Assembly (NCBI RefSeq): GCF_056712565.1
Contig: NZ_CM160072.1
Strand: one strand, 5' to 3'
DNA: 64,000 nucleotides
The position numbers are program-made. Positions 3,001 to 6,000 of the stretch are shown here, in pieces (the first letter of the stretch is position 1; every line of letters starts with the position of its first letter).

Positions 3001-6000
3001 GGAAAAACCGTTACCCCATTGATGTGGTGAAAATCCCGATGGCGGTGCCGCTGACCACGGCGTTTAAACAGAATATTGAGCGGATACGGCGTGAGCGTCT
3101 TCCGAAAGAGCTGGGCTATGCGCTGCAGCATCAACTGAGAATGGTAATAAAGCGATGAAACATACTGAACTCCGTGCAGCCGTACTGGATGCACTGGAGA
3201 AGCATGACACCGGGGCGACGCTTTTTGATGGTCGCCCTGCTGTTTTTGATGAGGAAGATTTTCCGGCAATTGCCGTTTATCTCACCGGCGCTGAATACAC
3301 GGGCGAAGAGCTGGACAGCGATACCTGGCAGGCGGAGCTGCATATTGAAGTTTTCCTGCCTGCTCAGGTGCCGGATTCAGAGCTGGATTCGTGGATGGAG
3401 TCCCGGATTTATCCGGTGATGAGCGATATCCCGGCACTGTCAGATTTGATCACCAGTATGGTGGCCAGTGGCTATGACTACCGGCGCGACGATGATGCGG
3501 GCCTGTGGAGTTCAGCCGATCTGACTTATGTCATTACCTATGAAATGTGAGGACGATATGCCAACACCAAATCCTCGGGCACCGGTGAAAGGGGCCGGGA
3601 CCACACTGTGGGTTTATAACGGGAGCGGCGACCCTTATGCAAACCCGCTTTCAGACAATGACTGGTCGCGTCTGGCAAAAATTAAAGACCTGACGCCCGG
3701 CGAACTGACCGCTGAGTCCTATGACGACAGTTATCTCGATGATGAAGATGCGGACTGGACCGCGACCGGGCAGGGGCAGAAATCCGCCGGAGATACCAGC
3801 TTCACGCTGGCGTGGATGCCCGGAGAGCAGGGGCAGCAGGCGCTGCTGGCGTGGTTTAATGAAGGTGATACCCGTGCCTATAAAATCCGCTTCCCGAACG
3901 GCACGGTCGATGTGTTCCGTGGCTGGGTCAGCAGTATCGGTAAGGCGGTGACGGCGAAGGAAGTGATCACCCGTACGGTGAAGGTCACCAATGTGGGCCG
4001 TCCGTCAATGGCAGAAGATCGCAGTACGGTGACGGCGGCAACCGGTATGACCGTGACGCCTGCCAGCTCCTCGGTGGTGAAAGGGCAGAGCACCACGCTG
4101 ACCGTGGCCTTCCAGCCGGAGGGCGCAACTGACAAGAGCTTCCGTGCGGTGTCAGCGGATAAAACAAAAGCCACCGTGTCGGTCAGTGGTATGACCATCA
4201 CCGTGAACGGCGTTGCTGCAGGCAAGGTCAACATTCCGGTTGTATCCGGTAATGGTGAACTTGCTGCGGTTGCAGAAATCACTGTCACCGACAGTTAATC
4301 CGGAGAGTCAGCGATGTTCCTGAAAACCGAATCATTTGAACATAACGGCGTGACCGTCACGCTTTCTGAACTGTCAGCCCTGCAGCGTATTGAGCATCTC
4401 GCCCTGATGAAACAGCAGGCAGAACAGGCGGAGTCAGACAGCAACCGGCAGGTTACTGTGGAAGACGCCATCAGAACCGGTGCTTTTGTGGTGGCGATGT
4501 CCCTGTGGCATAACCATCCGCAGAAGACAAAGCAGCCTTCCATGAATGAAGCCGTTAAACAGATTGAGCAGGAAGTGCTTACCACCTGGCCCGCGGAGGC
4601 AATTTCTCATGCTGAAAACGTGGTGTACCGGCTGTCCGGTATGTATGGGTTTGTGGTGAATGATGCCCCTGACCAGGCAGAGGACTCCGGGCCTGCAGAG
4701 CCTGTTTCTGCGGGAAAGTGTTCGACGGTGAGCTGAGTTTTGCCCTGAAACTGGCGCGAGAGATGGGGCGACCTGACTGGCGCGCCATGCTTGCCGGGAT
4801 GTCATCCACGGAGTATGCCGACTGGCACCGCTTTTACAGTACCCATTATTTTCATGATGTTCTGCTGAATATGCACTTTTCCGGGCTGACGTACACTGTG
4901 CTCAGCCTGTTTTTCAGCGATCCGGATATGCATCCGCTGGATTTCAGTTTGCTGAACCGGCGTGAGGATGACGAAGAGCCTGAAGATGATGTGCTGATGC
5001 AGAAAGCGGCAGGGCTTACCGGAGGCGTCCGCTTTGACCCGGACGGAAATGAAGTTATCCCCGCTTCCCCGGATATGGCGGGCATGACGGAGGATGACGT
5101 AATGCTGATGACAGTATCAGAAGGGATCGCAGGAGGAGTCCGGTATGGCTGAACCGGTAGGCGATCTGGTCGTTGATTTAAGTCTGGATGCGGCCAGATT
5201 TGACGAGCAGATGGCCAGAGTCAGGCGTCATTTTTCCGGTACGGAAAGTGATGCGAAAAAAACAGCGGCAGTCGTTGAACAGTCGCTGAGCCGACAGGCG
5301 CTGGCTGCACAGAAAGCGGGGATTTCCGTCGGGCAGTATAAAGCCGCCATGCGTATGCTGCCTGCACAGTTCACCGACGTGGCCACGCAGCTTGCAGGCG
5401 GGCAAAGCCCGTGGCTGATCCTGCTGCAACAGGGTGGTCAGGTTAAGGACTCCTTCGGCGGGATGATCCCCATGTTCCGGGGGCTTGCCGGTGCGATCAC
5501 CCTGCCGATGGTCGGGGCCACCTCGCTGGCGGTGGCGACCGGTGCGCTGGCGTATGCCTGGTATCAGGGTAACTCAACCCTGTCCGATTTCAACAAAACG
5601 CTGGTCCTTTCCGGCAATCAGTCGGGTCTGACGGCAGATCGTATGCTGGTCCTGTCCAGAGCCGGGCAGGCGGCAGGGCTGACGTTTAACCAGACCAGCG
5701 AGTCACTCAGCGCACTGGTTAAGGCGGGAGTAAGCGGTGAGGCTCAGATTGCATCCATCAGCCAGAGTGTGGCGCGTTTCTCCTCTGCATCCGGCGTGGA
5801 GGTGGACAAGGTCGCTGAAGCCTTCGGGAAGCTGACCACTGACCCGACGTCGGGGCTGACGGCGATGGCGCGCCAGTTCCATAACGTAACGGCGGAGCAG
5901 ATTGCGTATGTTGCTCAGTTGCAGCGTTCCGGCGATGAATCCGGGGCATTGCAGGCGGCGAACGAGGCCGCAACGAAAGGGTTTGATGACCAGACCCGAC

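What the first reader, a model, noticed from the sequence alone, without database searches (positions are those of the whole stretch)
4700..4740. Lambda-type programmed -1 frameshift site in G/GT
The heptamer G GGA AAG sits six codons before the G stop, and the T-frame ORF begins exactly there with no independent start. Decoding AAG then slipping -1 yields ...SAGK-VFDGELSFALKL..., the expected G-T fusion.
Basis: partly seen in the sequence, partly recalled or inferred. Interest (0 to 1): 0.35.

Follow-up and report, generated by a model that had tools for sequence, protein, structure and literature searches.

The report
Lambda G/GT tail chaperone frameshift site
This is the textbook programmed -1 ribosomal frameshift site of phage lambda's tail-assembly chaperone genes G and T, sitting intact in a phage-21/lambda-like prophage of a pathogenic E. 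coli chromosome; it is real but entirely ordinary and already known.

Summary
G_GGA_AAG lies at window 4712-4718, in phase with gene G (4314-4736). AAG is followed by five codons and TGA. The -1 frame runs on for 144 codons (4718-5152) and ends 8 nt inside the tape-measure gene H.

G matches Pfam Phage_TAC_2 and the -1 frame matches Phage_tail_T. The genes sit between the major tail protein and the tape measure.

The DNA is 99.7-99.9% identical to phage 21 and 95.8% to lambda. It is identical to lambda from 17 nt upstream to 40 nt downstream of the heptamer.

The heptamer count alone is not significant (12 copies against 8.1 expected). The weight comes from context and conservation. All 45 distinct related junctions carry a shifty heptamer at the same codon. 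More than half have a non-start codon as the first -1 codon, and no T-frame start-like codon has a Shine-Dalgarno sequence.

One correction: the first -1 codon here is GTG, and RefSeq annotates T from it as a separate gene.

Verdict: already known, low interest. One side lead is an apparently conserved RNA stem structure 7 nt downstream, for which the evidence is only suggestive.

The parts
4314..4736 (+). Gene G: tail assembly chaperone, 140 aa, the zero-frame product.
   Evidence: ORF. Pfam PF06894 Phage_TAC_2, E=1.3e-57. Shine-Dalgarno GGAG upstream, -6.6 kcal/mol.
4712..4718 (+). Slippery heptamer G_GGA_AAG, the -1 shift site. GGA sits in the P site and AAG in the A site, and they re-pair to GGG and AAA.
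   Evidence: It is the only in-phase X_XXY_YYZ heptamer in G. The same position is kept in all 45 distinct related junctions.
4734..4736 (+). G stop codon TGA, five codons after AAG.
   Evidence: The stop is at the same distance in 43 of the 45 distinct junctions. The exceptions there are Kp4865-4 (stop one codon after AAG) and L074 (a 1-nt insertion). Among the phages fetched later, Fels-1, mEp460 and Vibrio HY01 also stop one codon after the heptamer.
4718..5152 (+). T segment in the -1 frame: 144 codons plus stop, translated as the C-terminal part of the 279-aa GT fusion, join(4314..4718,4718..5152).
   Evidence: Pfam PF06223 Phage_tail_T, E=3.4e-13. Substitutions against relatives are concentrated at third positions of this frame. 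The fusion differs from lambda gpGT at 18 of 279 residues.
4673..4717 (+). Stretch of the -1 frame that is open upstream of the junction: 15 codons with no start-like codon.
4726..4796 (+). Candidate 3' RNA structure (inferred, unproven). The outer stem pairs 4726-4733 with 4789-4796. It encloses a GC-rich hairpin at 4752-4787. The structure starts 7 nt after the heptamer.
   Evidence: The same architecture appears in the separate minimum-energy folds of lambda, PhiR12_4, CP-1639, N15, phi80 and Kp4865-4. For the window, z is -2.6 against dinucleotide shuffles but only -1.1 against protein-preserving recodings.
3528..4298 (+). Gene V: major tail tube protein, the upstream neighbour. The start is at 3528 or 3558.
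   Evidence: Pfam Phage_TTP_12 E=1.4e-70 plus Big_2. Annotation of phage 21 and HK630.
5145..7706 (+). Gene H: tape measure protein, 853 aa, the downstream neighbour. Its ATG overlaps the end of T by 8 nt.
   Evidence: Pfam TMP_2 E=1.2e-69 plus Tape_meas_lam_C. Strong Shine-Dalgarno GGAGGAG, -10.3 kcal/mol.

Best explanation
This is the lambda-type programmed -1 ribosomal frameshift that produces the tail assembly chaperone pair gpG and gpGT.

- Ribosomes start at the G ATG (4314). Most terminate at TGA 4734-4736 and give the 140-aa gpG.
- A few per cent slip back one nucleotide when tRNA-Gly is on GGA and tRNA-Lys(mnm5s2UUU) is on AAG, re-pairing to GGG and AAA.
- Those ribosomes continue through GTG 4718 in the -1 frame to TGA 5150-5152. 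The product is the 279-aa gpGT (...SAGK-VFDGEL...).
- In lambda, many gpG molecules and a few gpGT molecules coat the tape measure protein gpH through their G parts. The T part recruits the tail tube protein gpV.
- Both chaperones leave the finished tail. The roughly 30:1 ratio set by the slip frequency is needed for assembly.

Shown here: the sequence anatomy, the homology, the conservation, and the lack of initiation signals for T.

Inferred from lambda: the slip frequency, the protein roles, and that this prophage copy is expressed.
For: - Heptamer, phase, stop and 144-codon -1 extension.
- V-G-T-H synteny with Phage_TTP_12, Phage_TAC_2, Phage_tail_T, and TMP_2 plus Tape_meas_lam_C.
- 99.7-99.9% DNA identity to phage 21, ev017 and PhiR57_1, and 95.8% to lambda.
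- Identical to lambda across 4695-4758.
- One nucleotide difference from phage 21 in G-T. The phage 21 record annotates a joined 'GT tape measure protein chaperone frameshift product'.
- N15, phi80 and LLS records annotate the homologous slippery site.
- All 45 distinct junctions from phage records and IMG/VR carry a shifty heptamer at the same codon: 38 G_GGA_AAG, 5 G_GAA_AAG and 2 A_AAA_AAG.
- Fels-1 and mEp460 (G_GAA_AAG) and Vibrio HY01 (C_CCA_AAA) keep the arrangement.
- T-frame similarity runs right up to the junction. The first -1 codon is a non-start codon (GTC, GTA or GCN) in 28 of 54 distinct relatives.
- No T-frame start-like codon has a Shine-Dalgarno sequence: -2.5 to +0.3 kcal/mol, against -6.6 for G, -10.3 for H and a background mean of -2.8.
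- Literature: lambda G_GGA_AAG, gpG:gpGT about 30:1, and the roles of the G and T parts (PMC5009743). The zero frame is kept about 96% of the time, and tRNA-Lys U34 thiolation tunes the shift (PMC3296357; PMC7618472). G_GG.A_AA.G is among the most shift-prone heptamers in E. coli (PMC4066793).
Against: - There is no direct evidence of expression or of the fusion protein for this copy.
- The prophage may be defective. In the closely related S88 prophage the replication gene O is annotated as frameshifted, outside the window.
- A GTG stands exactly at the junction, and RefSeq annotates T as a stand-alone CDS.
- The heptamer by itself is no more frequent than chance in the window.
Confidence: 0.95

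Rival explanations
1. T is an independent gene, translated from the GTG at 4718 or from an internal ATG (4763, 4787 or 4799), as RefSeq PGAP and the original lambda GenBank record annotate it. On this reading no recoding is needed.
For: - GTG at 4718 heads a 144-codon ORF.
- RefSeq calls 'phage tail assembly protein T' as a separate CDS, as in S88 and in every one of the 12 listed hits among the 3,707 complete E. coli genomes that carry a homologue.
- J02459 lists T (144 aa) separately.
Against: - No Shine-Dalgarno sequence precedes any T-frame start-like codon: -2.5 to +0.3 kcal/mol, at or below the background mean.
- The junction codon is not a start codon in 28 of 54 distinct relatives, yet T-frame conservation begins at the junction.
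- Other annotators place T starts at different downstream ATGs, so the separate-gene calls are inconsistent with one another.
- The literature describes gpG and gpGT as the products of this locus.
Confidence: 0.03
2. The frame change happens at the RNA level. RNA polymerase slips on the A run and makes an mRNA with one extra A (equivalently, two fewer), which fuses G to T.
For: Transcriptional slippage is known in phage and IS genes (PMC5009743). Two relatives have a six-A run, TCAAAAAAG.
Against: - The run here is only three A's (GGGAAAG), far shorter than the homopolymer tracts typically associated with transcriptional slippage (established knowledge).
- In lambda, changing the modification of tRNA-Lys changes the gpG:gpGT ratio, which points to the ribosome.
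Confidence: 0.01
3. The site is intact but is a silent relic. The prophage is cryptic, so the frameshift has no present function in this host.
For: - The homologous S88 prophage has a frameshifted O gene and several pseudogenes.
- The prophage carries host-beneficial cargo such as sitABCD, as long-resident prophages often do.
Against: - Every head and tail ORF in the window is full length.
- G-T differs from viable phage 21 by one nucleotide.
- The T-frame substitution pattern shows purifying selection in the family.
- This is a statement about expression. It is not an alternative mechanism.
Confidence: 0.15

Closest known systems
Phage lambda G/GT programmed -1 frameshift (Levin, Hendrix and Casjens 1993; Xu, Hendrix and Duda 2004, 2013, 2014, as cited in PMC5009743)
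   Same: Same heptamer G_GGA_AAG, same distance to the G stop, same 140-aa and 279-aa products, and same V-G-T-H order. The 64 nt around the site are identical. G-T DNA identity is 95.8%.
   Different: There are 18 amino-acid differences in GT, 12 in the G part and 6 in the T part. One substitution (A4759, where lambda has T) falls in the predicted downstream inner stem. This copy is resident as a prophage in an ExPEC-type chromosome.
Phage 21 (OL657228) tape measure chaperone G/GT
   Same: Effectively the same gene: one nucleotide difference in G-T, at window 4868. The phage 21 record annotates the joined frameshift CDS. Like phage 21 (recalled knowledge), this prophage sits at icd.
   Different: The rest of the prophage is mosaic relative to phage 21. 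For example, register is lost from about 8730 onward in the K region.
N15, phi80, LLS, mEp043, HK225, Fels-1 and mEp460 G-T frameshift sites
   Same: Homologous G and T proteins, with the shift site at the same codon and a -1 direction.
   Different: These phages use the non-canonical G_GAA_AAG, where the P-site re-pairing is near-cognate. Fels-1 and mEp460 place the G stop one codon after the heptamer, not five.
E. coli dnaX (tau/gamma) and IS3/IS911 orfAB -1 frameshifts
   Same: Bacterial -1 tandem slippage on an X_XXA_AAG heptamer decoded by tRNA-Lys (PMC4066793).
   Different: Those sites depend on defined stimulators: an upstream Shine-Dalgarno-like element and/or a downstream hairpin or pseudoknot. 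They also shift at much higher rates, and dnaX yields a shorter product. Here no upstream Shine-Dalgarno-like element is visible by eye, and a downstream structure is only a candidate.

Membership tests
Lambda-type G/GT tail assembly chaperone -1 programmed frameshift (Xu-Hendrix-Duda conserved class) | Two overlapping ORFs lie between the major tail protein gene and the tape measure gene. | tested here: met
   V 3528-4298, G 4314-4736, T frame 4718-5152, H 5145-7706, with matching Pfam families.
Lambda-type G/GT tail assembly chaperone -1 programmed frameshift (Xu-Hendrix-Duda conserved class) | [quoted passage not shown] | tested here: met
   G_GGA_AAG at 4712-4718, five codons before the stop, and the only in-phase X_XXY_YYZ heptamer in G. 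The motif ranks among the most efficient in E. coli.
Lambda-type G/GT tail assembly chaperone -1 programmed frameshift (Xu-Hendrix-Duda conserved class) | The downstream ORF is in the -1 frame and lacks its own translation initiation signals. | tested here: met
   The frame is -1. No Shine-Dalgarno sequence precedes GTG 4718 or any later T-frame start-like codon. The junction codon is a non-start codon in 28 of 54 relatives. Caveat: a GTG is present in this copy.
Lambda-type G/GT tail assembly chaperone -1 programmed frameshift (Xu-Hendrix-Duda conserved class) | Sequence homology to lambda gpG and the gpT domain. | tested here: met
   PF06894 E=1.3e-57 and PF06223 E=3.4e-13. 261 of 279 residues are identical to lambda GT.
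Lambda-type G/GT tail assembly chaperone -1 programmed frameshift (Xu-Hendrix-Duda conserved class) | The shift site is conserved among relatives despite sequence divergence. | tested here: met
   All 45 distinct junctions keep it. Eleven named phages down to 36-39% T identity, including a Vibrio phage, keep a shifty heptamer at the homologous codon.
Lambda-type G/GT tail assembly chaperone -1 programmed frameshift (Xu-Hendrix-Duda conserved class) | A G-T fusion protein is actually made at a low, fixed ratio (about 3-4%, roughly 1 in 30), and it is required for tail assembly. | not testable with these tools
   Established for lambda only (PMC5009743; PMC3296357). It is inferred here from the nucleotide identity of the site.
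Independent gene T (as in RefSeq and GenBank annotation) | Own start codon with a ribosome binding site, conserved among homologues. | tested here: not met
   The GTG is present, but its Shine-Dalgarno energy is -2.2 kcal/mol against a background mean of -2.8. The start codon is not conserved.
Rfam frameshift or recoding RNA elements | A match to a curated covariance model at or next to the site. | tested here: not met
   No Rfam hit in 4600-4900 even at E<=10. The only gathering-level hit in the window is the C0299 sRNA at 37629-37707.

The most novel reading that the evidence does not exclude
The shift site may not act alone. The 71 nt starting 7 nt downstream (4726-4796) could fold into a conserved two-tier stem structure: an outer stem 4726-4733/4789-4796 enclosing a GC-rich hairpin at 4752-4787. 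This structure would serve as a 3' stimulator that sets the gpG:gpGT ratio in lambda-, N15- and phi80-type phages.

I could not check whether such an element has been described. Neither the reviews I read nor Rfam mention one. My unverified recollection is that Levin et al. 1993 saw a modest downstream sequence effect without assigning a structure.

Even if real, it refines a known system and is not a new kind of system.
Probability: 0.3. Interest if true: 0.25.

Novelty: already known. Interest (0 to 1): 0.06.

Why it matters
The biology is settled, so the value is practical.

- **Annotation.** The correct annotation here is a joined CDS, join(4314..4718,4718..5152), encoding gpGT alongside gpG. 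RefSeq instead calls a stand-alone 'tail assembly protein T' from GTG. It does so in S88 and in every listed hit among the 3,707 of 5,426 complete E. coli genomes that carry a homologue.
- **Prophage integrity.** An intact site is one marker that the tail module of this icd-integrated prophage is still functional.
- **Side lead.** If the downstream RNA structure proves functional, it would fill a small gap in a classic model system: how a bare heptamer reaches a few per cent shifting and holds a fixed chaperone ratio.

Tried and rejected
1. **Heptamer frequency as evidence.** Rejected. There are 12 copies against 8.1 expected, which is not significant.
2. **Pure geometry as evidence** (an in-phase heptamer, a nearby stop and a long -1 ORF). 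It is not unique. The sitB/sitC junction (18139, minus strand) and the sitD 3' end (16422, minus strand) also pass. They are explained by adjacent or overlapping ORFs and carry poor E. coli shift motifs.
3. **Broader folds around the site.** The 92-nt and 141-nt folds were not significant, z -1.5 and -0.9. Only the exact 82-nt segment after the heptamer gives z -2.6. Against protein-preserving recodings the window copy falls to z -1.1.
4. **Covariation test of the downstream structure.** 98% of cells are paired, but 14 of 21 pairs never vary and only 2 pairs show double changes. The 16:84 GC-to-AU change, confined to the N15/phi80 group, is probably a single event. The test is inconclusive.
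5. **Rfam.** No family matches at the site.
6. **Primary lambda papers.** I tried to read Xu et al. 2013 and 2014 by DOI and by PMC id. They are not held. Levin 1993 and Xu 2004 are not in the library either, so I relied on reviews and papers that cite them.
7. **Transcriptional slippage.** Considered and rejected, because the A run is only three bases.
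Full report
**1. The observation**

- Reading 4200-5300 and translating both frames shows gene G from ATG 4314 to TGA 4734-4736, 140 aa.
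- Its last codons are ...TCT GCG GGA AAG TGT TCG ACG GTG AGC TGA.
- The heptamer G_GGA_AAG occupies 4712-4718 in X_XXY_YYZ phase. It is the only in-phase heptamer of that type in G.
- After a -1 slip the next codon is GTG 4718-4720. The frame stays open for 144 codons, to TGA 5150-5152.
- The fusion is 279 aa, with the junction ...EPVSAGK|VFDGELSFALKL.

Two details need adjusting:
- The -1 frame is open from 4673, which is 15 codons before the junction.
- The junction codon is itself a GTG. The mechanical ORF list therefore shows a 144-aa 'GTG-started' ORF at 4718-5152.

**2. Is it more than chance?**

- The heptamer alone is not. GGGAAAG occurs 12 times in the window against 8.1 +/- 3.0 expected.
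- A scan of both strands found 34 in-phase slippery heptamers whose frame is open for at least 100 codons upstream. Three of them have a -1 extension of at least 100 codons.
- Those three are this site, the sitB/sitC junction (C_CCT_TTT at 18139, minus strand) and the sitD 3' end (G_GGA_AAC at 16422, minus strand).
- At the first of those, the -1 ORF is sitC, the next gene in the operon with its own start codon. At the second, the -1 ORF is an unannotated ORF lying partly antisense to an annotated gene.
- Geometry is therefore suggestive but not decisive. Context and conservation carry the argument.

**3. Context**

- The flanking ORFs match Pfam families as follows:
  - Phage_tail_U for U.
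  - Phage_TTP_12 plus Big_2 for V.
  - Phage_TAC_2 for G (E=1.3e-57).
  - Phage_tail_T for the -1 frame (E=3.4e-13).
  - TMP_2 plus Tape_meas_lam_C for H.
- This is the lambda order V-G-T-H.
- Window 3500-7800 is 99.7-99.9% identical to phages PhiR57_1, ev017 and 21, and 95.8% to lambda.
- G-T differs from phage 21 by one nucleotide, at 4868.
- It differs from lambda by 35 of 839 nt and by 18 of 279 residues. There is no difference between 4695 and 4758.
- The phage 21 record annotates a joined 'GT tape measure protein chaperone frameshift product'. N15, phi80 and LLS records annotate the homologous slippery sequence.
- The window is E. coli chromosome of the ExPEC/APEC type. Positions 13000-33000 are 100% identical to S88, SF-468, APEC E18055 and others.
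- It carries a lambdoid prophage inserted at icd, whose left part lies outside the window.
- After the tail-fibre genes come sitABCD and a duplicated icd fragment, and then host genes from bluR/bluF to dhaKLM.

**4. Conservation**

- In ten named phages the shift site is at the same codon, with three motif variants:
  - G_GGA_AAG in lambda, phage 21 and PhiR12_4.
  - A_AAA_AAG in CP-1639 and 1720a-02.
  - G_GAA_AAG in N15, phi80, LLS and mEp043.
- Adding 80 IMG/VR loci gives 45 distinct junction sequences. All carry a shifty heptamer there: 38 G_GGA_AAG, 5 G_GAA_AAG and 2 A_AAA_AAG.
- More distant homologues keep the design. Fels-1 and mEp460 have G_GAA_AAG with the stop one codon later, and Vibrio phage HY01 has C_CCA_AAA.
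- The T frame is coding. Against relatives at 55-72% amino-acid identity, third-position differences are roughly twice those at first or second positions.

**5. Does T have its own start?**

- The first -1 codon is GTG in 26 of 54 distinct T segments. It is a non-start codon (GTC, GTA or GCN) in the other 28, yet the protein similarity begins at that codon.
- In the window, anti-Shine-Dalgarno duplex energies upstream of every T-frame start-like codon are -2.5 to +0.3 kcal/mol. G scores -6.6, H scores -10.3 and the background mean is -2.8.
- Annotators who treat T as a separate gene choose inconsistent starts.
- RefSeq PGAP uses the GTG, in S88 and in all 12 listed hits of the genome search. 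A G-T homologue is present in 3,707 of 5,426 complete E. coli genomes, with a median of two copies per genome that has one.
- Independent initiation is therefore formally possible but unsupported.

**6. Mechanism**

- What follows is taken from the lambda literature, not tested here.
- tRNA-Gly in the P site and tRNA-Lys in the A site slip together from GGA AAG to GGG AAA. This gives a low level of -1 shifting.
- The two products are needed at about 30:1. The G parts bind the tape measure protein, and the T part binds the major tail protein and recruits it. Neither protein is in the virion (PMC5009743).
- The zero frame is kept about 96% of the time. Hypomodification of tRNA-Lys(UUU) U34 raises shifting and lowers phage yield (PMC3296357; PMC7618472).
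- G_GG.A_AA.G is among the most shift-prone heptamers in E. coli (PMC4066793).
- A permanent G-T fusion in phage TP901-1 gives non-infectious particles, which underlines the importance of the ratio (PMC4493119).
- Because the window's site and its 64-nt surroundings are identical to lambda, I infer the same behaviour.

**7. Side observation: a possible 3' stimulator**

- Aligning the region after the heptamer shows unusually strong nucleotide conservation.
- RNAalifold predicts an outer stem (window 4726-4733 with 4789-4796) enclosing a GC-rich hairpin (4752-4787). The structure begins 7 nt after the heptamer.
- Separate single-sequence folds of the 82 nt after the heptamer recover this architecture in lambda, PhiR12_4, CP-1639, N15, phi80 and Kp4865-4.
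- The z-scores against dinucleotide shuffles are as follows:

| Sequence | z-score |
|---|---|
| CP-1639 | -2.1 |
| Window | -2.6 |
| Lambda | -3.5 |
| PhiR12_4 | -3.5 |
| phi80 | -3.8 |
| Kp4865-4 | -4.4 |
| N15 | -5.2 |
| Fels-1, mEp460, Vibrio HY01 | -0.3 to -2.0 (weak or absent) |

- On 30 distinct sequences 98.1% of cells pair. However, 14 of 21 pairs are invariant and only two show double changes.
- Synonymous third positions inside predicted pairs vary in 5 of 11 codons, against 37 of 46 outside them.
- Against recodings that keep the T protein, the native sequence is always more stable but only modestly so. The z-scores are -1.1 for the window, -1.8 for lambda, and -2.2 to -2.5 for N15, phi80, PhiR12_4 and Kp4865-4.
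- The region encodes the most conserved T peptide (LAREMGRPDWRAMLAGM), and its 5' end overlaps the G stop. Protein constraint is therefore a serious confounder.
- No Rfam family covers the region.
- I rate this as suggestive only. I could not check the primary lambda papers for prior description.

**8. Verdict**

- The finding is real and correctly interpreted. It is a textbook, already annotated feature of lambda-like phages, present in about two thirds of complete E. coli genomes.
- Novelty: already known. Interest: 0.06.
- The practical point is annotation: T should be a joined GT CDS, not a stand-alone gene.
- The only open thread is whether the downstream structure is a functional stimulator.

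Noticed in passing
window 4726-4796 (+): Candidate conserved RNA structure starting 7 nt after the slippery heptamer. The outer stem pairs 4726-4733 with 4789-4796 and encloses a GC-rich hairpin at 4752-4787. The same architecture appears in independent folds of lambda, N15, phi80, PhiR12_4, CP-1639 and Kp4865-4 (z -2.1 to -5.2). Covariation is weak, and the signal is only modest against protein-preserving recodings.
   Followed up: partly
window 4718-5152 (+); S88 locus L006 32491-32925: RefSeq PGAP annotates 'phage tail assembly protein T' as a stand-alone CDS from the GTG at the junction, not as a ribosomal-slippage join with G. It does so in S88 and in all 12 listed hits of the genome search. 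A G-T homologue occurs in 3,707 of 5,426 complete E. coli genomes.
   Followed up: partly
L004 921-927, L005 918-924, L011 1018-1024, L096 and L097 583-589, L098 680-686: Relatives use other heptamers at the homologous codon. N15, phi80, LLS, mEp043, HK225, Fels-1 and mEp460 have the non-canonical G_GAA_AAG. CP-1639 has A_AAA_AAG. Vibrio phage HY01 has C_CCA_AAA. The distance to the G stop is 5 codons in the lambda, N15 and phi80 types but 1 codon in Fels-1, mEp460, Kp4865-4 and HY01.
   Followed up: partly
window 4737 (first base of T codon 7): T codon 7 varies in amino acid (S, N, K, T, I) but begins with A in 53 of 54 distinct relatives. This preserves the overlapping G-frame TGA. It may reflect selection on the position of the G stop, or simply single-step changes among ANN codons.
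   Followed up: no
window 16383-19832 (-), about 21746-21913 (+): The sitABCD iron/manganese transporter operon lies between the prophage tail-fibre genes and a partial duplicate of icd, which marks the attachment-site end. It therefore looks like cargo carried inside the icd-integrated prophage. Per the S88 annotation, the serum-resistance gene iss lies in the same prophage, left of the window.
   Followed up: partly
window 18133-18139 (-) and 16416-16422 (-): Two other in-phase slippery heptamers have -1 frame extensions of at least 100 codons. C_CCT_TTT lies 13 codons before the sitB stop, and its -1 frame is sitC, which has its own start. G_GGA_AAC lies 10 codons before the sitD stop, and its -1 frame is an unannotated 213-aa ORF (16078-16719) partly antisense to an annotated gene. 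Both are probably chance or ordinary gene overlap.
   Followed up: partly
window 13644-15710 (+): A single 688-aa ORF follows J. In S88, PGAP splits it into a 'tail fiber N-terminal domain' pseudogene and a 'phage head spike fiber domain-containing protein', although both lie in the same frame.
   Followed up: no
window 2500-5500 and 11000-13000: Against E. coli S88 the prophage is mosaic. 196 mismatches cluster mainly in these two patches (the Z-to-H tail genes and the 3' part of J), whereas 13000-33000 is essentially identical. This suggests recombination between related prophages. The G-T patch is of the phage 21 type.
   Followed up: partly
window 37629-37707 (+): The only Rfam gathering-level hit in the window is the C0299 sRNA (111.9 bits). 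It lies between the degraded hlyE pseudogene and umuD.
   Followed up: no
L074 (IMGVR_UViG_2537562188_000009), about 54 nt after the heptamer: One viral contig has a 1-nt insertion (GGGG to GGGGG) in T shortly after the junction. It would break the T frame. It is either a sequencing error or a decaying prophage copy.
   Followed up: no
S88 annotation mapped to window about 34300-37500 and 47200-48850: Several host pseudogenes lie in the flanking chromosome: truncated or frameshifted autotransporter fragments, frameshifted hlyE, a truncated cyclic-di-GMP phosphodiesterase and an incomplete cvrA.
   Followed up: no
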